Assembly: GCA_963664305.2 (NCBI GenBank)
Contig: CAXXLV010000002.1
Location: forward strand, 1,536,001-1,600,000
Reading direction: 5' to 3'
DNA length: 64,000 nt
Source of the DNA: an uncultured Aliarcobacter sp.
GTDB taxonomy: Bacteria > Campylobacterota > Campylobacteria > Campylobacterales > Arcobacteraceae
The position numbers were made by a program, and so were the translations under genes. Below, in pieces: positions 30,631 through 40,032 of this stretch; the first letter of the stretch is position 1, and every line of letters begins with the position of its first letter. A model generated the notes under the pieces. That model had not been told where the DNA came from and made no database searches. It saw only the letters and a list, made by a program, of their open reading frames with translations.

Positions 30631-30648
30631 TAGTTAATAAATAGTTGA
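30631..30648 (+). repeat. attL core TAGTTAATAAATAGTTGA
   Basis: Exact copy at 40015-40032; flanking sequences differ. Confidence 0.88.
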
Positions 30649-30784
30649 AAAAATTACTTTTTCTTTGTAATTATTTTGTATTCAAATTATAGATAAATTC
30701 GCACTTTCTACACATTTTCTAAAAAGCCTTACATATCTTTTAAATATAAAGATTATGTAAATATTTTTCACAAAAATTGCACAC

Positions 30785-31042
30785 CTATTTTATCTTTTCT
30801 TCTAGAAGTTTTATTTTTTCTTCTAAAGCTTTAATTGTTGGAATCATTTTACCAACTACTTCATCTAAATTCGTATATCCTTCTAGATTACCTTTGATTT
30901 CATTTTCTTTTTGTAAGCCCAATTCAATCAATTTAATTAATTCAGGTTTTGTATCTATCCAGTTATAAATTGTTCCAACAGATATATTAATTCTATCTGC
31001 AATTAATTCTTTTTCTTTTCTCGTTAGTTCTTTAATATACAT
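30785..31042 (-). CDS. Phage repressor-like HTH protein with C-terminal coiled coil
   Basis: ELIADRINISVGTIYNW HTH; divergent from structural operon; SD GGAG before ATG 31042. Confidence 0.7.
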   Translation of the reverse strand: MYIKELTRKEKELIADRINISVGTIYNWIDTKPELIKLIELGLQKENEIKGNLEGYTNLDEVVGKMIPTIKALEEKIKLLEEKIK

Positions 31043-31354
31043 TTTTCTCTCCTTTCCGTACAAATATTAAATTATATACAAATATTAAGCTTAATTTAAT
31101 TATTAAACTATTACAATTCATTAATTTAAATATTGAATTTTATTCAACTATTGAATTACTGTTTATAATTTAGATTAAAAGATTTAAATGCAAACTACAT
31201 GCAAATTCTATCAAAAATCTAATTATTGTACAAATTCTAATTATTTTAATATTGAATTTACTCCCTCTGTAAGTTCAGTTAGTCAAATGAGGGGAAAGAC
31301 ATTTTAGTCGTAGCCGATTGGTATTAAATCGATTAAATAATAAAAGGAAAAAAT

Positions 31355-31735
31355 ATGTCAACTGAAAAAACTACAAACAACTTAGTAAAACCAATTCAAT
31401 TAACTGAACATGGTTGTTATTTATATGGTACTTTAGATGGTATCGACTTTACTGCTTCTGGTGTATTCCCTGAAACTAAAAAACCTTATGGTGCTAGTGT
31501 TAAACTTAAATTTATTATGAAAACATTAAGTCATAAAGAATTAAATGGTGTAAAAATTCCAGTTCAAAATGCTAGGTCTGTAATTGTTAAATTAAATACA
31601 ACAGATGACAAATTACCTGCTTTAGTTCAAAAATATAATGAATTAGTAAGTAAAAACTTATTTGTAAATTATATTCCTAAAGATGGAGATGTTTTAAATA
31701 TTGATGATGAAAATGAGATTATTGAAATAAAGTAA
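31355..31735 (+). CDS. Putative phage ssDNA-binding protein (pV-like)
   Basis: Size and position as first gene before the coat genes; beta-rich; strong SD; no motif proof. Confidence 0.5.
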   Translation: MSTEKTTNNLVKPIQLTEHGCYLYGTLDGIDFTASGVFPETKKPYGASVKLKFIMKTLSHKELNGVKIPVQNARSVIVKLNTTDDKLPALVQKYNELVSKNLFVNYIPKDGDVLNIDDENEIIEIK

Positions 31736-32056
31736 TTTCTTAATGTTGGGGCATTGAGTTTTAATTCCGTACACTCTTGTAAGTCCCCCTCCATTATATA
31801 AGACTCGATTTTTAAAAATACAGAAGATATCTCGGCTCGTTAGATATGTAAGACTGTAATTTTTAAAAATGAGTAAACAAACGAAGTGCGTTAGGCTTCA
31901 AATGATGACTATGAAAAGTCTAGCTATTTGCTACTAGATGGCTCTTTGCACGAATAGAAAAAAATATAAATATTGTTGAGTACATATTTTTTGTGTATTC
32001 AATTTTCTTTATATATGTGTTTGTAGCACATAACTTTAATTTTACGGAGTCACGTT

Positions 32057-32173
32057 ATGGATTTAACAGGTTTAGTTTTTAATACTTCTGATGCTATGGA
32101 AGTTGGGGTTTTAGTTTTAATTGGTACTGGAGTAATCTGGGGTATTAGAAAAGCTATTGGTATGGCTAAGTAA
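32057..32173 (+). CDS. Major coat protein candidate (pVIII-like), 38 aa, no signal peptide: MDLTGLVFNTSDAMEVGVLVLIGTGVIWGIRKAIGMAK
   Basis: SD GGAG; acidic N-terminus, hydrophobic core, basic C-terminus; followed by a hairpin; not in ORF track. Confidence 0.75.
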   Translation: MDLTGLVFNTSDAMEVGVLVLIGTGVIWGIRKAIGMAK

Positions 32174-32190
32174 GGGGGATTTTCTCCCTT
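32172..32190 (+). terminator. Hairpin after the major coat gene
   Basis: AAGGGGGA-TTT-TCTCCCTT then T-rich tail; Ff phages have a terminator after gene VIII. Confidence 0.6.
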
Positions 32191-32226
32191 ATTTCTATTT
32201 CTAAATTTTTTTATAAAGGTTTACAA

Positions 32227-32349
32227 GTGGAAATATTACAAACTTTTACTATCTCTTTCTCTAACTTATCAATTCTTGGAACTGCTCTAATTTTATATCT
32301 AGCTGTTCTTTGGTCTGTAAAAAAAACAATTGAAATAATCTGGGCTTAA
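32227..32349 (+). CDS. Small single-TM virion protein candidate, 40 aa (pVII/pIX-like)
   Basis: GTG start, SD AAGG; MEILQTFTISFSNLSILGTALILYLAVLWSVKKTIEIIWA. Confidence 0.6.
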   Translation: MEILQTFTISFSNLSILGTALILYLAVLWSVKKTIEIIWA

Positions 32350-32350
32350 T

Positions 32351-32494
32351 ATGTATTCATCTACTGATATCGCAACTTATTTAAATCTTTCTTTACAAGA
32401 TTATAGTTTTTTAATGGCTTTAACTGGTTCTTTGTGTGGTTTTACTTTTTTGTTCTTTGCTTGTTATTTAGCTATTGAAATTGGGAGAAAATAA
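32351..32494 (+). CDS. Small single-TM virion protein candidate, 47 aa
   Basis: MYSSTDIATYLNLSLQDYSFLMALTGSLCGFTFLFFACYLAIEIGRK; 1-nt gaps to both neighbouring ORFs. Confidence 0.6.
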   Translation: MYSSTDIATYLNLSLQDYSFLMALTGSLCGFTFLFFACYLAIEIGRK

Positions 32495-32495
32495 T

Positions 32496-32666
32496 ATGAA
32501 ATTAGTTCTATTACTTTTAGTTTTTATTGTTCCATCTTTTGCAAATGATTTAATTATTGTTGCAATAACTCCAGATGATACTTTTAATTTTTTCTTTTCA
32601 ATTTATGTAAATATATCTTTAGTTCTAGCTACTCTTTTTGGTGCTATGGCTCTTATTAGGTCTTAA
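32496..32666 (+). CDS. Small phage membrane protein, 56 aa, with signal peptide
   Basis: MKLVLLLLVFIVPSFA-ND..., C-terminal TM segment; SD GGAG. Confidence 0.6.
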   Translation: MKLVLLLLVFIVPSFANDLIIVAITPDDTFNFFFSIYVNISLVLATLFGAMALIRS

Positions 32667-32668
32667 TT

Positions 32669-34125
<1,457 letters not shown>

Positions 34126-34129
<4 letters not shown>

Positions 34130-34539
34130 TTAATTTAATTTATGCTATTGGTACATATTTAATTACTAAGTTTGGAAAGACTGTTGCTCTTTCTATTATG
34201 TTTGCAACTAATAAAGCTTTGTTGTTTTCTTTAATAGTTTTGTTTATAACAACTCTTTTTAACCTTTTAATGACTACTTATGAAACTGTACAATCAATCT
34301 TCACTAAAATTGAATCTCTTGCTAATGGTTCTTCTATATCTGGATTATCTGATTGTTTTAATATTATTGTTTCATCAACAATCAATGCAACTGGTTTCTT
34401 TGAAGCTTTTAATGTTGTGGGTCCTACATTGTTTTTAGTTTACTTTACTTACTTCAATGTTTTTCTACTAGGTTTTTCTATTGATATCTATAGATTTATA
34501 GATAAATCTGTTACAGAATTTGCTCTTATTGTGAAGTAG
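34126..34539 (+). CDS. Hydrophobic virion protein (pVI-like)
   Basis: Multi-TM; lies between pIII and pI; TTGA overlap. Confidence 0.65.
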
Positions 34540-34545
34540 TTTAAC

Positions 34546-35637
34546 ATGATTCAATTTTGTACGGGAATACCAGGAAGTGGAAAAAGCTATTATGGAATTT
34601 TTAATATAGCTATTCACTTTGCTAAAGATTTAAAAGATAATAAAAAATTTAAATCTTTTGCTCTTAGTGATACTAAATATAAAACTTGTTTAACTAACTT
34701 GAATGAGTTTAAATTTGAAAAATTTGATAATGTTAAAGAATTAGATTTTACTCAATTCAAAGTTATATTAACTAGATTACATAATCTTTATAAAATAGGT
34801 AAATCAGATACAGAATTACAAGAATATGTAAAAGATGAAGATTTCTTTAATACTTTGATTGTTTTTGATGAATGTCAAAATTTCTTAAATAAAGATGATG
34901 AAGTTCTAGTGTGGTGGCTTTCATATCATAGACATTTCCATCAAGATATTATATTAATTACTCAAGATTTACCTTTAGTTCATAAAAAATATAAATCTTT
35001 TACAGAGTTTTATTATAAAGCAATTCCAAGCTCTAGAAAACTTTTTAATTCTCACATGATTTACCATCAATTTACAGGACACCAATTATTCCAAACTCAA
35101 AAAGCTAATACTAAAAAATTACCTATTGTAAAAGAAATGTTTTCTTTATATGGTTCTGGAGAAAACAATAAACAAAAATCTCTTGTAGTTCACTTCTTAG
35201 TTTTTTCATTCTTCTTATTAATTCTTTTATTTATTTTTGCATATTTTTTTGTTTCTTCAATGACTAAAGATGAACCTAAAAAAGATAATAAACCTTTACC
35301 AGTTCAAACACATAATATTAATTCTATTCCAACACCAGTAAAAAAAATTGATGAATTTGAAAGTGCAACTTACTATGAAATATTTTGTAATAAAAATCTT
35401 TGTTTTGTAAATAACAATGTTTTTACTAGAGAATATTTATTAAATATCTTGAGTAAAGAATATAAAACAAGATTTATTCAAATTACTAAAAATAAATATT
35501 ATCTAGTGACTACCGATAAATATAACCTATTTGAAAAAAAGGAGAAAATTAAAGATGAAAATAGTATTAATTCTGGGTTTGATTTTAAGTTGTTTAATAG
35601 CCAACCCCAACCAACAACAGAACCTAAATCAAAATAA
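34546..35637 (+). CDS. Morphogenesis ATPase pI / Zot-like
   Basis: GIPGSGKS Walker A, IVFDECQ Walker B, HRH...ILITQ, TM segment after the ATPase. Confidence 0.9.
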   Translation: MIQFCTGIPGSGKSYYGIFNIAIHFAKDLKDNKKFKSFALSDTKYKTCLTNLNEFKFEKFDNVKELDFTQFKVILTRLHNLYKIGKSDTELQEYVKDEDFFNTLIVFDECQNFLNKDDEVLVWWLSYHRHFHQDIILITQDLPLVHKKYKSFTEFYYKAIPSSRKLFNSHMIYHQFTGHQLFQTQKANTKKLPIVKEMFSLYGSGENNKQKSLVVHFLVFSFFLLILLFIFAYFFVSSMTKDEPKKDNKPLPVQTHNINSIPTPVKKIDEFESATYYEIFCNKNLCFVNNNVFTREYLLNILSKEYKTRFIQITKNKYYLVTTDKYNLFEKKEKIKDENSINSGFDFKLFNSQPQPTTEPKSK

Positions 35638-36826
35638 TTTAGAGTATGTAGAAACTGATTTAAAATCTTTTTCTATTGAAGTATTATCTAGTTTAGATAA
35701 AACATTCATCATTCAAGATGATTTGCTAAAAGATATAGTTGTTTACTATAAACCAGAACAAAATAATCTTAACTTCTTAATTCAAGTTTTAAATAACAAT
35801 GATTATGAAATTAAGATATCTAATAATGTTTACTATATTTTAAAAAAGAAAGAGTTAGAAGTTCTAAAAGAGGATTTAGTTGTTAATACTATCCAACTTC
35901 ATAAAATAGATTTTGAATATATAAAAACTCTTTTTGCAGTTTATAAAGATATAGAATATACTTTTATTCCATCTTCTAAACTTTTAATTTTAAAATCTAC
36001 TCAAGCTGATTATGAAAATATTAAAAAGATTGTTTCTTATGTTGATAACACTCCAAAACAATTAAAAGTTAAAATCACTATTCTTGATACAAACCTAAAC
36101 AAAATAAAAGAGTATGGAACAGAATTAACTCAAAATATAAATCAATCATCTAATTTTTTCTTTAATCTTTTAGCATATCCTTTTCAAGTATCTAGTAATA
36201 TAAACTCTACTCAAAAAGATAATTTTACTTCATTTGTTAAACTTCTTAATCAAAATAAAATTACTGAACTTGTTGCAAGTCCAACTTTAACACTTTCAGA
36301 TAATGAAGCAGTTGCTTTTAATCTTGTAAAAAATATTCCTTATCTTTCAGGCTCTACAACTGTTGATGATAATAACACTAAAACAACAAATACATACACT
36401 TACAAAGATATAGGTTTAAAAATCTCAATTACACCTAAAATTTATAATGATGAAGTTCAAATTAACTTAGAACTTACAAGTGAGTCAATCTTGGATAGTT
36501 CAAACACTCCTAAAACTTCAAAATCATTTATTAAACAAGTTTTTTCATTAGCTAAAAATAGATTATTTGTTTTAACTGGTATCAATCAAACTCAAAAATA
36601 TGAAGATACTCAAAAGACTACTTTTTTAGGAGATATTCCTTTTTTAGGTTGGTTATTTAAAACAGATACAAATGATACAACTTCTTCAAATTTAACTATT
36701 TTACTTGAACTAATAAATGAAGATGATTACTCAACAAATGACTTTAATGTGATAGTTCCAAATAAAAAAATTCAATCTTTGGAACATGAAAAAAGAGTTA
36801 ATGAAATCTTAGGTTTGAAAAATTAA
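35555..36826 (+). CDS. Secretin (pIV-like phage extrusion channel)
   Basis: SPTLTL.DN, YKDIGLKISITPKI, LGDIPFLGWLFK secretin motifs; signal peptide from ATG 35555. Confidence 0.88.
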   Translation: MKIVLILGLILSCLIANPNQQQNLNQNNLEYVETDLKSFSIEVLSSLDKTFIIQDDLLKDIVVYYKPEQNNLNFLIQVLNNNDYEIKISNNVYYILKKKELEVLKEDLVVNTIQLHKIDFEYIKTLFAVYKDIEYTFIPSSKLLILKSTQADYENIKKIVSYVDNTPKQLKVKITILDTNLNKIKEYGTELTQNINQSSNFFFNLLAYPFQVSSNINSTQKDNFTSFVKLLNQNKITELVASPTLTLSDNEAVAFNLVKNIPYLSGSTTVDDNNTKTTNTYTYKDIGLKISITPKIYNDEVQINLELTSESILDSSNTPKTSKSFIKQVFSLAKNRLFVLTGINQTQKYEDTQKTTFLGDIPFLGWLFKTDTNDTTSSNLTILLELINEDDYSTNDFNVIVPNKKIQSLEHEKRVNEILGLKN

Positions 36827-36841
36827 TTTAAAGGTTAAAAA

Positions 36842-37045
36842 ATGAAACAATCAAGAATACTAAAAATGAAAATTCTTATTTTAAAAACAAATATTTTTAA
36901 AACTATTAAAGATTATGATTTAAAACCTTCTTTTATTTATCATCCTTTTACAAAACAGTTTATTGGAAAGTGTATTTTAGATTGCAAATTATTAGAATTA
37001 AAAAAATTAGAAAATGAATTAAAAAATTTAGCCACGACTTTTTAA
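36842..37045 (+). CDS. Hypothetical 67-aa basic phage protein
   Basis: SD AAGG; co-oriented after pIV; no recognised motif. Confidence 0.5.
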   Translation: MKQSRILKMKILILKTNIFKTIKDYDLKPSFIYHPFTKQFIGKCILDCKLLELKKLENELKNLATTF

Positions 37046-37179
37046 ATCATAAAATTTAAAAAGTGTGGGAACTATTGGAAGATATCTAACCTATTAATGA
37101 ATATTTACCCAATAGTTTAACGAGCAAATGGTTTACCTTTTATAGGTTTTAAATTGAGTGGAGTAACAAAAACAACTTT

Positions 37180-37224
37180 CTCACAAGTGGCAGCTTGTCT
37201 GCCACTGTGAGGAAGTCTTGATTA
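37180..37224 (+). other. Candidate rolling-circle origin (GC-rich hairpin plus TCTTGATTA)
   Basis: CTCAC-A-AGTGGCAG/CTGCCACT-GTGAG stem at 37180-37211, directly upstream of rep. Confidence 0.55.
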
Positions 37225-37264
37225 CTTTTAAAAAAGTTACTACACCTAAATAGGAGAAATAGAA

Positions 37265-38578
37265 ATGTACGGAATTACTAAAGAAGATATCCAAGTTATT
37301 GATATAAAACTAGAAGAACAAAGAAAATATATTACAAGTAGATTTTTTGATTTTGGGGACGAGTCAAAGTCAGCTTTAGAGTTCACATACTCTGCAAACT
37401 TAAATCCTAAAAAGTATTTCGCAGAAATGAATAACAGAATTAACAGTATCTTTGATTATGCAAGGGAATTAAATTTAAAACCAGTATTTTGCACAATTAC
37501 AGCACCCTCAAAATATCACAAATGTAATGTAAATGGAGAGTTAAAAATCAATCCAAATGAAACAGCAAAAGAACTAACACAAATATTTAATAAATTTACA
37601 AATCTAAGGATTTTCCAAAAGATGAAAAAACAATTAGGACATGGGCTTATTTACTTTAGAGTTTATGAACCTCATAAATCAGGAGTTCCACATTTACACG
37701 CTATGTTATTTGTTCCAACTGATTATATACTAGATATAAAAAAGAAATTCTATGAATATTTTACAAATAAAGTAAAATGGGGAAATAATAGAAAATCTTT
37801 AGATTTTAAATATACTTGGTATAACTCTGCAGGTGGTGCAATAGCTTATATTATGAAGTATGTAACTAAGACTTTTAAAAATGAAAGTGATAAATCAACT
37901 CAATATGCTTCATATTGGTATATTAAACATAACATTAGAAGATTTCTTTGTTCAAGGACTTTAGCACCTCTTACAATTTATAGAAAAATTAGATACTTCT
38001 TTAAAAACCAAAAAAACGATTATCTAAAAGTTACTGAACTAATTAAGAATAATCAAATACATAGATTATTTGAAAATACAACTTACTCATATATGCGATT
38101 TAACTATGAAACTGGAGAAATTGAAGATATCACAGTTTGGCAAAAAAATACAGATTTAATTCTAAGAAGTAGAATAAAACTAAATGAAACTTTCAAACTA
38201 GAATATAAGAAAAAAGAACATAAAAAGGCTCTTTCTGTATTTGTAAATGACTTTGTAAAATATGTACATAGTGAAACTTTAAATAAATTTGTTTTACTTC
38301 CAGTAATACCAAGTAAACTAAAAGATTACCAACTAAATAACTATTACCATATTTTAGAAAATACAGATATTGATTCCCTTGATTTAGTACATTTTGAATT
38401 AGTTAAAAATGAAATGATTAAAAGAGGATTCCTAAATCAAACACCAACCAATATGAATGAATTTATAAAAGATTTTAATTTTAATCCCTTTATGAGTTCA
38501 ATCGAAAAAGTTAAATTTTCTAGAGTATTTGAACATGATTTAAACATTCCGTTTGTATCACATCAAAATTTATTTTAA
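37265..38578 (+). CDS. HUH rolling-circle replication initiator (gpA-like, two Tyr)
   Basis: FCTITAPSKYH (motif I), EPHKSGVPHLH (HUH), AYIMKYVTKT (YxxKY). Confidence 0.88.
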   Translation: MYGITKEDIQVIDIKLEEQRKYITSRFFDFGDESKSALEFTYSANLNPKKYFAEMNNRINSIFDYARELNLKPVFCTITAPSKYHKCNVNGELKINPNETAKELTQIFNKFTNLRIFQKMKKQLGHGLIYFRVYEPHKSGVPHLHAMLFVPTDYILDIKKKFYEYFTNKVKWGNNRKSLDFKYTWYNSAGGAIAYIMKYVTKTFKNESDKSTQYASYWYIKHNIRRFLCSRTLAPLTIYRKIRYFFKNQKNDYLKVTELIKNNQIHRLFENTTYSYMRFNYETGEIEDITVWQKNTDLILRSRIKLNETFKLEYKKKEHKKALSVFVNDFVKYVHSETLNKFVLLPVIPSKLKDYQLNNYYHILENTDIDSLDLVHFELVKNEMIKRGFLNQTPTNMNEFIKDFNFNPFMSSIEKVKFSRVFEHDLNIPFVSHQNLF

Positions 38579-38667
38579 GGATTAAAAAAAGACAAAAAAG
38601 AGTTATTTTCTTGTTATTTTATTTTCAATAGTTATTTACTATTATAAATTAATATAAAGGAAAATTT

Positions 38668-38951
38668 ATGTCGTATGATTCTTTTAAAAATTTGGATTTA
38701 ATTCCAACTTTGTTAGAGAAACTTTTTTTTTAGAGGAAAAAATAAAATTATTGGAAAATAATCTTATTCAAACTCCTGATTTAACAAAAAGAAAAAATGT
38801 GAGAGAATATCTTGATATCTCTGAATCAACTTTAAATAATATGTTTAAAGATGGAAGATTAAAACAAGGTTATCACTATCATAAATCTTTTAAGAATAAT
38901 AGGATTAAGATTGTATTTGTAGAAAGTGCGATTAAGGAGTTGAAAAAATGA
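38668..38951 (+). pseudogene. Excisionase-like HTH gene interrupted by a T9 tract (frameshifted or phase-variable)
   Basis: SD AAGGA plus ATG 38668; stop at codon 22 (TAG 38731); -1 frame continues LEEKIKLLENN...VREYLDISESTL (HTH) and overlaps the integrase start. Confidence 0.7.
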
Positions 38952-39964
38952 CTTTTTCTAATCGTAATGGAAAATTATATGTTTCGATAAATGGTGTAAG
39001 AAAATCAACTAAATTAAAATATTCAAAAGAGAATATTAAAAAGTTTAAATCTTATTATCAAGATGAAGAGTTCTTTAACAAATTTAATATTAATAAATCT
39101 GTTCCAACTATTGTAGATTTATGTTATGAAGTTCTTGAGATAAAAGAAAAGCATTTAAAACGAAATTCTTATAGGTGTTATCTTGCTTTAATTGAAAGTA
39201 GAATAGTTCCATATTTTAAAAAAATGTATGTTACTGAATTAAAACCTATAGATGTTTATAACTGGTTTAATACTTTTAGTTCTTCTCAAACTTTAAATAT
39301 CTGCTATACAATCCTAAAAAGTGCTTTTGAAAGAGCTATTATAAAAAACTATATTTCTTCAAGTCCTTTTATAATTAAAAGACCTAAAATAAAAACAAAT
39401 TATAAAATTAATCCTTTCACTTTTGATGAAGCTAAAAAAATTATTGAATTTGCTCCACATAATTTAAAAAACTTTTTTGGTTTTGCTTTCTTTACTGGGG
39501 CAAGAACTGGAGAAATATTTGGTTTAAAGTGGAATAATGTAGATTTTGAAAACTTCAATATAAAAATTGATTCTCAAATTACAATGGGTTGTATAGATAC
39601 TCCTAAAACTTTATCTAGTGAAAGAGTTATTGATATGCTGCCACAATGTGAATATTACTTAAAAGAACAATTTAAAATTACTGGAGCTTATGAATTTGTT
39701 TTTTTAAATGAGCATAATAATTACTATACTTCGACTTCTGTTTTTAAACATATTTGGGTTCAGCTCCTTAAAGATTTAAAATTAGAATATAGAAGTGTTT
39801 ATCAAACAAGACACACTTTTGCTAGTAATATGATTTCAGGTGGAGAGAATCCTCTTTGGGTTTCACAAATGTTAGGACATAAATCTCTAAATACTACTTT
39901 AACTAAGTATTCAAGATATATAAAAAGAAATGAAATAAGAAAATATACATTTTTAGATTCTTAA
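38948..39964 (+). CDS. Tyrosine recombinase / phage integrase
   Basis: TGARTGE (R), PKT (K), YQTRHTFAS, LGH, Y. Confidence 0.93.
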   Translation: MTFSNRNGKLYVSINGVRKSTKLKYSKENIKKFKSYYQDEEFFNKFNINKSVPTIVDLCYEVLEIKEKHLKRNSYRCYLALIESRIVPYFKKMYVTELKPIDVYNWFNTFSSSQTLNICYTILKSAFERAIIKNYISSSPFIIKRPKIKTNYKINPFTFDEAKKIIEFAPHNLKNFFGFAFFTGARTGEIFGLKWNNVDFENFNIKIDSQITMGCIDTPKTLSSERVIDMLPQCEYYLKEQFKITGAYEFVFLNEHNNYYTSTSVFKHIWVQLLKDLKLEYRSVYQTRHTFASNMISGGENPLWVSQMLGHKSLNTTLTKYSRYIKRNEIRKYTFLDS

Positions 39965-40014
39965 ATCCAATTTTTTAACAGTTTAAAATTAGGGATTGTT
40001 TTTTGGGGATTTTG

Positions 40015-40032
40015 TAGTTAATAAATAGTTGA
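40015..40032 (+). repeat. attR core TAGTTAATAAATAGTTGA
   Basis: 50 nt after the integrase stop; exact copy of 30631-30648. Confidence 0.88.

What the first reader, a model, noticed from the sequence alone, without database searches (positions are those of the whole stretch)
30631..40032. Apparently complete filamentous prophage with its own integrase and secretin
Seen: full inovirus-like gene order between exact 18-bp repeats, giving a predicted 9,384-nt circle. It encodes a tyrosine integrase (as Pf4-type phages do, rather than relying on host Xer/dif), a pIV-like secretin (as Ff phages do) and a two-tyrosine HUH Rep. Inference: a potentially active inovirus; I know of few characterised examples from Campylobacterota.
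Basis: partly seen in the sequence, partly recalled or inferred. Interest (0 to 1): 0.75.

Follow-up and report, generated by a model that had tools for sequence, protein, structure and literature searches.

The report
Filamentous prophage with a frameshifted excisionase
A 9.4-kb filamentous-phage genome of a type common in Campylobacter and Arcobacter relatives sits in this chromosome between two exact 18-base repeats, but its excision-helper gene carries a frameshift, so it is likely locked in or only rarely released.

Summary
Exact 18-bp repeats (the only two copies in the genome) flank a full inovirus gene set, and 16 of 16 orthologous loci in relatives show one core and no insert. It was present in 18 of 19 further loci I picked, and it was published for Campylobacter 'zot prophages' in 2016. 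So this is a new member of a known kind. 'Complete' needs a correction: the excisionase gene shifts frame in a run of nine T's, while 25 of 25 homologues are one intact ORF. Contigs from the likely source sample show no circle or empty-site junction. The prophage is therefore likely excision-impaired, unless slippage or an intact 72-76% identical Xis from a 5.2-kb satellite-like element in the same genome rescues it. That element shares a covarying hairpin with the phage. The more novel result lies outside the window: four integrase-less relatives sit between difH-like sites near xerH, a route I found in none of three literature searches.

The parts
30631..30648 (+). attL core, 18 bp; fits TTAA-N7-TT(A/G)A, a pattern shared by the att cores of this integrase clade
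30785..31042 (-). 85-aa HTH protein, likely repressor, divergent from the structural operon
   Evidence: weak HTH hits; homologues in the same position in relatives; start chosen by RBS
31355..31735 (+). gV-like ssDNA-binding protein (OB fold), 126 aa
   Evidence: AlphaFold2 mean pLDDT 70.8; Foldseek top hits are PriB/SSB, best E 8e-4
31803..31874 (+). conserved long imperfect hairpin, candidate packaging signal or minus-strand origin; also present in the co-resident 5.2-kb element
   Evidence: z -3.55; 6 of 31 pairs with changes on both sides in 5 sequences
32057..32173 (+). 38-aa leaderless membrane protein, likely major coat protein pVIII
   Evidence: acidic N-terminus, hydrophobic core, basic C-terminus; 63-74% identical in 3 relatives; followed by the only strong plus-strand terminator, 32168-32194
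32227..32666 (+). three small membrane proteins (40, 47 and 56 aa), likely minor coat proteins
32669..34129 (+). pIII-like adsorption protein, 486 aa: signal peptide, Cys-rich domain, Gly/Ser/Thr linker, C-terminal membrane anchor
   Evidence: sequence; repeats D1/D2; 16 Cys and one TM segment at 454-472; N-terminal part differs in close environmental relatives
34126..34539 (+). pVI-like membrane protein, 137 aa
   Evidence: position and two TM segments; homologues
34546..35637 (+). pI morphogenesis ATPase (Zot family), Walker A at residue 7, Walker B at 104, TM segment near 209-240
35555..36826 (+). pIV secretin, 423 aa, overlapping the end of the pI gene
36842..37045 (+). 67-aa ORF of unknown function in a slot that varies between relatives
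   Evidence: no family hit; replaced by other sequence in X3 and X6 contigs
37176..37233 (+). GC-rich hairpin (37176-37215) followed by a conserved 17-nt motif (37217-37233), predicted double-strand origin and nick site
   Evidence: hairpin z -5.62; motif upstream of Rep in the window and 13 related loci, single copy in this genome
37265..38578 (+). HUH rolling-circle initiator of P2 gpA type, with two catalytic-type tyrosines (Y195, Y199)
38668..38951 (+). excisionase-like gene, frameshifted in a T9 run at 38723-38731: the first frame stops after 21 codons and the HTH part lies in another frame
38948..39964 (+). tyrosine integrase, 338 aa, catalytic residues intact
40015..40032 (+). attR core, 18 bp

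Best explanation
This is an inovirus-type prophage inserted at an 18-bp intergenic core, with intact coat, export, replication and integrase reading frames but a frameshifted excisionase gene, so it is likely held in the chromosome and released rarely or only with outside help. Shown: the duplicated core, the empty site in relatives, the gene set and the frameshift. Inferred: Int recombined a 9,384-nt circle into the core, probably across the 7-nt spacer of TTAA-N7-TT(A/G)A. The divergent HTH protein would keep the prophage quiet. Only one origin motif is present, so progeny circles would need excision by Int plus Xis. After excision, Rep would nick the conserved motif beside the GC hairpin, the OB-fold protein would coat the displaced strand, and pI with pIV would extrude it in a pVIII coat without lysis. 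Full-length Xis would come only from slippage at the T9 run or, in trans, from the related Xis of the co-resident 5.2-kb element.
For: att duplication and empty sites. Family hits and fold match. Intact catalytic motifs. The xis ATG at 38668 has a good RBS, aligns with the start of intact homologues and meets a stop just after the T9 run. Of 32 rows, I set aside the window itself, 4 duplicates and 2 with no hit; all 25 remaining homologues are one ORF of 84-150 aa. Contigs of runs X1 and X2 (one sample, probably the source) match the window across the run with 0 differences and 0 gaps, carry attL and attR on continuous contigs, and list no circle or empty-site joint. Att cores of four other members of this integrase clade fit the same pattern. 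Slippage at runs of nine A or T is efficient in vivo (PMC5009743, passage).
Against: X1/X2 are low-depth contigs (about 9-12) that drop rare variants and are probably not independent of the assembly, so the absence of junctions is weak evidence. A 66-aa ORF from a TTG start keeps the whole HTH domain and might suffice. In Pf4 the excisionase promotes excision but is not essential (PMC7379572 abstract). T9 is near the top of the genome's homopolymer range (104 runs of 9, 3 of 10), where read errors concentrate. No receptor, expression data or particles could be checked. Coat-protein assignments rest on size, hydrophobicity and position, with no family hit.
Confidence: 0.65

Rival explanations
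1. A fully active prophage: the short TTG-started Xis, slippage, or Int alone gives normal excision, or the T-run length is a read error.
For: All other frames are intact and coding density is 87%. Close relatives of the structural block, about 90-97% identical per piece, occur in five other runs from five studies (X3-X7), so the lineage circulates. XisF4 is not essential for Pf4 excision (abstract).
Against: The TTG start has its purine-rich stretch far upstream and loses the N-terminal part present in the close homologues. X1/X2 contigs repeat the T9 run and list no junctions.
Confidence: 0.2
2. A mutually dependent helper-satellite pair: the 5.2-kb element supplies Xis to excise the prophage and uses the shared hairpin to be packaged in its particles.
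For: The element (L036, 5,222 bp between 18-bp cores of the same pattern) has Int 64% and an intact Xis 72-76% identical to the window's, and no morphogenesis genes. It carries a 113-nt, 75% identical copy of the phage's intergenic hairpin (E 5e-9) with compensatory changes. Among 151 family genomes the only long match to the hairpin was this element.
Against: The hairpin could be a minus-strand origin, which any rolling-circle element needs. It was aligned in only 5 sequences. The element lacks the phage's origin motif. Xis proteins are often element-specific: XisF4 and XisF5 do not substitute for each other (PMC7549136 passage).
Confidence: 0.12
3. Not a phage but an integrative rolling-circle element that happens to carry a secretin and an ATPase (a secretion island).
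For: By sequence the secretin is closer to GspD than to the solved virion export protein in PDB.
Against: No pilins or other type II secretion parts lie inside the repeats. The order ssDNA-binding protein, small membrane proteins, pIII, pVI, pI, pIV and the PHROG hits to M13 pI and pIV match inoviruses.
Confidence: 0.03

Closest known systems
Campylobacter zot-containing prophages CON_phi2, CON_phi3, URE_phiZA/B, DOYLEI_phiZ and others (Liu et al. 2016, PMC5025632; main text parts 1-3 of 4 and supplement file 2 read)
   Same: 9.3-11.3 kb between direct repeats; gene order integrase, P2/HP1-type replication protein, gene IV protein, Zot, small hypothetical proteins; same bacterial order
   Different: Their att sites are 25-105 bp at tRNA 3' ends, while this one is an 18-bp intergenic core. 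That paper treated them as toxin-bearing prophages, not as inoviruses. The xis frameshift is specific to this copy.
Sulfurimonas inovirus-like prophages, proposed 'Amplinoviridae' (Li et al. 2024, PMC11531552, passages; Roux et al. 2019, PMC6813254, passages)
   Same: Campylobacterota hosts; modules for structure, assembly/secretion, regulation, replication and integration; att sites beside an integrase; replication and integration genes frequently exchanged
   Different: Different host genus. I did not test sequence relatedness to those vOTUs or family placement.
Pseudomonas Pf4/Pf5 prophages (PMC7379572 abstract; PMC7549136 and PMC4863604 passages)
   Same: Own tyrosine integrase at the prophage end next to the initiator, an excisionase, a divergent repressor, several integrase types matched to different sites
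   Different: Pf4 has no pIV, uses a Rep_trans (PF02486) initiator, and has xis beside the repressor. Here pIV is present, Rep is HUH/gpA type, and xis lies directly before int.
Vibrio phage Vaf1 (OP297622, Inoviridae)
   Same: An inovirus record of 10 kb whose initiator matches this Rep (24% identity, E 4e-8)
   Different: No integrase annotated in its 13 features; distant sequence.

Membership tests
Inoviruses (Tubulavirales; criteria of Roux 2019) | pI ATPase whose closest domain is Zot, with a transmembrane segment | tested here: met
   PF05707 E 1e-16, Walker A and B, TM segment
Inoviruses (Tubulavirales; criteria of Roux 2019) | small single-membrane-segment coat genes upstream of pI | tested here: met
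   four ORFs of 38-56 aa, conserved in relatives; no family hit, so identity is by shape and position
Inoviruses (Tubulavirales; criteria of Roux 2019) | rolling-circle initiator and ssDNA-binding protein | tested here: met
Inoviruses (Tubulavirales; criteria of Roux 2019) | canonical att: direct repeat of 10 bp or more next to an integrase | tested here: met
   18 bp, 50 nt after the int stop codon
Inoviruses (Tubulavirales; criteria of Roux 2019) | filamentous virions holding circular ssDNA, released without lysis | not testable with these tools
   no culture; contigs show no circle joint
Campylobacter zot prophages (Liu 2016) | integrase, gpA-type Rep, gene IV and Zot adjacent in a 9-11 kb unit | tested here: met
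Campylobacter zot prophages (Liu 2016) | insertion in a tRNA-Met, tRNA-Ser or tRNA-Leu 3' end | tested here: not met
   no tRNA in the window; intergenic core
Pf4-type phages | own tyrosine integrase plus excisionase | tested here: inconclusive
   integrase intact; xis present but frameshifted
Pf4-type phages | no pIV, and a Rep_trans (PF02486) initiator | tested here: not met
   pIV present; Rep is Phage_GPA/HUH
IMEX (elements using host Xer/dif) | no integrase and dif-derived att sites | tested here: not met
   not met for the window element (own Int; host difH single and distant). Met for relatives L024, L026, L029 and L041.

The most novel reading that the evidence does not exclude
This phage family swaps integration cassettes freely. 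It uses at least three private integrase clades and, in integrase-less members, the host's single-recombinase XerH/difH system, which would be the first mobile elements exploiting XerH (about 0.75 likely taken alone, for relatives outside the window). In this genome the prophage is an excision-crippled helper, gated by a slippery T-run and rescued by the Xis of a satellite that carries its packaging hairpin, so that helper and satellite need each other (about 0.15-0.2 taken alone). The probability given is for both holding together.
Probability: 0.15. Interest if true: 0.7.

Novelty: new member of a known kind. Interest (0 to 1): 0.38.

Why it matters
As a prophage type it is ordinary for Campylobacterales. 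A Zot/pI match at E 1e-6 or better was present in 61 of 401 genomes of the order (my count). It would still be a tractable example, since I found no report of particles from an inovirus of this phylum. Its 'Zot' is best read as the phage's export ATPase, not as evidence of a toxin. Two side results carry more weight. Integrase-less relatives at difH would extend Xer hijacking to the single-recombinase systems and give natural attP variants for testing XerH. The frameshifted xis beside a satellite-like element with a matching Xis and hairpin gives a direct test of satellite-helper dependence in filamentous phages outside Vibrio.

Tried and rejected
Activity from reads: no RNA holder was listed. 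All 8 runs laid were contigs, and none listed an attP joint, which proves nothing either way. Run X22, from the same study, barely covered the stretch and was not informative. A metagenome scan with the integrase gave 21 loci, best 66% identity, none with this module. IMG/VR scans gave 3 related contigs, none with terminal repeats. A complex prediction of the repressor with the satellite-like element's Xis, prompted by a shared LEEKIKLLE stretch, returned no answer (score 0.02). Rfam found 0 matches. The promoter scan was at chance level (62 found, 67 expected). No CRISPR array or self-targeting spacer turned up in a simple repeat scan, and a loose DNA search for spacers in 44 genus genomes gave only noise-level short hits. 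The protein atlas gave no result, so the pIII receptor domain remains unassigned. The careful pIV and Int trees timed out and were redone with FastTree; the Rep tree is the quick version and has long branches. No clear att repeat was found for L021, L023, L028, L030, L042 or L043. Rejected: dif use by the window element; a tRNA target; Ff- or Pf-type Rep. The weak PF05707 hits in roughly 800-aa ORFs were not counted as pI.
Full report
Observation. The 18-mer is exact at 30631-30648 and 40015-40032, 9,384 nt apart. There is no other match in the window at up to 2 mismatches (chance mean 0.04) and no other exact copy in the genome. The window is G000:C2:1,536,001-1,600,000. The host is likely an Arcobacteraceae member: 26.9% GC, and its difH matches the 24-nt core of the published A. 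butzleri site exactly. The left flank is a SurA/PPIC-type PPIase gene and the right flank an OmpR-family regulator. One search returned 19 non-self loci. Three were phage Rep hits and were set aside. All 16 others carry a single core-like site with both flanking genes adjacent, exact in 5, and in G027 the 60 nt on each side equal the window's flanks. Contigs of runs X3 and X6 join across the site, skipping 9,384.

Anatomy. Between the repeats lie 14 genes covering 87% of the element. In order: a divergent HTH gene; a 126-aa OB-fold protein (model pLDDT 70.8, top Foldseek hits PriB/SSB); a 38-aa leaderless membrane protein, conserved at 63-74% and followed by the only strong plus-strand terminator, which fits pVIII by analogy with Ff (recalled); three more small membrane proteins; a pIII-like protein with Cys-rich head, Gly/Ser/Thr linker and C-terminal anchor; a pVI-like protein; pI (Zot E 1e-16); pIV (PHROG 'protein IV of M13' E 1e-42); a 67-aa ORF; Rep (Phage_GPA E 1e-20); xis; and int. 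Rep keeps HLH and YxxKY in 9 of 9 aligned sequences, so 'two-tyrosine HUH' is right. Int keeps R186, K220, R288, H311 and Y321. Two cis elements stand out. A GC hairpin (z -5.62) precedes a 17-nt motif found upstream of Rep in the window and 13 related loci, each after a different hairpin-like stretch. It starts with CTTG-AT, like phiX174 and pC194 nick sites (recalled), and I read it as the double-strand origin. A long hairpin at 31803-31874 is conserved in 5 sequences, with 6 of 31 pairs changed on both sides (0 of 500 shuffles reached the covariation score, but the set is small and related).

The xis gene starts at 38668 with a good RBS, aligns with intact homologues, and loses frame in a run of nine T's at 38723-38731. 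The first frame stops after 21 codons and the HTH part lies in another frame. Of 32 rows, after removing the window, 4 duplicates and 2 no-hits, 25 of 25 homologues are a single ORF. Contigs of X1 and X2 reproduce the window across this run with no gaps, run continuously across attL and attR, and list no circle or empty-site joint. These two runs are one sample, probably the source, at low depth, so they argue against a simple assembly slip but do not exclude rare excision. Slippage at nine A/T is efficient in vivo (PMC5009743, passage), so leaky expression is plausible. The genome also holds a 5,222-bp element with an intact Xis (72-76% identical over the aligned part), an Int of the same clade (64%), a core of the same TTAA-N7-TT(A/G)A pattern, no morphogenesis genes and a copy of the 31803-31874 hairpin. 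An earlier AI note (e1-8052712) also read it as a probable satellite; that note is a lead, not support.

How common is the layout? The pI protein matched 10 of 44 genus genomes, counting the host. The 9 others hold 12 elements, all with Rep, 11 with pIV and 9 with an integrase. Across the order, PF05707 matched 100 of 401 genomes at E 0.001 or better, many of them weak hits in unrelated 800-aa ORFs; 61 have E 1e-6 or better by my count. I picked 19 pI loci from 18 of these genomes, favouring long contigs, so the sample is not random. All 19 have pI, pIV and Rep and 18 have an integrase hit, one of them weak. Liu et al. 2016 (PMC5025632; main text parts 1-3 of 4 and supplement file 2 read) already list integrase, P2/HP1-type Rep, gene IV and Zot for Campylobacter prophages of 9.3-11.3 kb at tRNA genes. 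A zot gene was noted in two A. thereius strains (PMC5495459, passages). Sixteen inovirus vOTUs were reported in Sulfurimonas (PMC11531552, passages). Roux et al. (PMC6813254 and bioRxiv 10.1101/548222, passages) include Campylobacterota hosts and note that replication and integration genes are widely exchanged. Their supplementary tables, which I did not read, may list relatives of this element. Pf4 differs in lacking pIV and using a PF02486 initiator (PMC7549136 and PMC4863604, passages). PMC3781098 (passages) added nothing further.

Mosaicism and a fourth integration route. Trees and identities disagree gene by gene: the nearest pI, Rep, pIV and Int come from different elements. Near-identical structural blocks in X3 and X6 carry a different pIII head, and X3 has little cover over this integrase. 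Four relatives (L024, L026, L029, L041) have no recombinase hit between two difH-like sites near an XerH-like gene. In L026 the outer arms rebuild a perfect difH and the inner arms a degenerate one. The 2017 review (PMC5357621, passages) and PMC2731167 (passages and Table 2) name only XerCD-exploiting elements. Three searches (XerH+difH+phage, XerH+IMEX, difH+prophage+integration) listed no paper on such a case; I saw only the listings for the other papers they returned, and the library lacks most subscription journals. This concerns relatives, not the window element, whose host difH is single and distant.

Mechanism and verdict. Shown: insertion with core duplication, a full inovirus gene set, intact Int and Rep motifs, and a broken xis frame. 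Inferred: Int-mediated integration over a 7-nt overlap, repression by the HTH protein, a need for excision before rolling-circle replication because only one origin motif is present, extrusion through pI and pIV, and impaired or leaky excision. I put 0.65 on this reading, 0.2 on a fully active prophage, 0.12 on mutual helper-satellite dependence and 0.03 on a non-phage island. It is a new member of a known kind. Interest is 0.38, carried mostly by the xis frameshift with its possible satellite rescue and by the difH-integrated relatives.

Noticed in passing
L024 (sites 2777, 13412), L026 (5684, 15342), L029 (4341, 14408), L041 (5128, 13187); genomes G002, G012, G066, G087: Four related inovirus prophages of 8.1-10.6 kb have pI, pIV and Rep but no integrase hit between two difH-like sites, near an XerH-like gene. 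In three, the xerH-proximal site is near-perfect and the distal one has a degenerate right arm, ending CAGTAG in two of them. In L029 both sites are nearly full and xerH lies about 2.4 kb away on the other strand. These are candidate XerH-exploiting elements; three searches listed no paper whose title or abstract start describes one.
   Followed up: partly
L036:6710-11949 (G000:C2 about 1,252,700-1,257,950): 5,222-bp satellite-like element: Rep (34% identical to the window's), small ssDNA-binding-like ORF, intact Xis, Int (64%), 18-bp cores of the same pattern, no morphogenesis genes, and a copy of the phage's intergenic hairpin between xis and int.
   Followed up: partly
L040:6850-11755 (G000:C1 about 854,850-859,750): A third int-xis-Rep element with no morphogenesis genes in the same genome.
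   Followed up: no
L021-L039: The family is strongly mosaic. The window's pI is closest to L021/L022/L037 (56-58%), Rep to L025/L028/L032/L038 (79-80%), pIV to L030 (65%) and Int to L031 (67%). Among 12 elements in 9 other genus genomes, 2, 5 and 2 use three integrase clades and 3 have none; 11 of 12 have pIV.
   Followed up: yes
window 30631-30648: The core is more conserved than its flanks across empty sites (89% versus 72% and 54%, ungapped; 17 rows, one a false match, and the core was chosen by best match). It holds a short direct repeat at 11-bp spacing just upstream of the PPIase gene's promoter region, so it may be a host regulator binding site. The downstream regulator resembles CosR/HsrA (recalled, no call).
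   Followed up: partly
window 30795-30827 and 38729-38761: The repressor C-terminus and the Xis N-terminal region share LEEKIKLLE and a 33-nt, 79% inverted DNA match. Unexplained; possibly low-complexity chance.
   Followed up: partly
L025:637/14093 and L032:389/13907: Relatives using the 385-aa integrase clade insert into the first codons of a conserved host gene (N-terminus MIIRVYYED, thioesterase-like by recall) and duplicate 16-27 bp.
   Followed up: no
L034:9793-12941 (G003): A 3.1-kb Rep-xis-int unit between 15-bp cores, with the origin motif but no structural genes: a deletion remnant or minimal satellite.
   Followed up: no
L049 and L051 (G410): Tandem and repeated copies of one inovirus prophage, about 10 kb apart, next to a tRNA-Sec gene.
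   Followed up: no
G000:C1 about 476-483 kb and 196-198 kb: The host has two secretins of its own, one in a Tad-pilus-like cluster and one GspD-like (cluster naming is my reading of the ORFs). The pilus is a candidate receptor.
   Followed up: no
run X6, window 30652: A contig follows the left flank through the core and then continues into 255 or more unrelated bases, so another element may use the same site.
   Followed up: no
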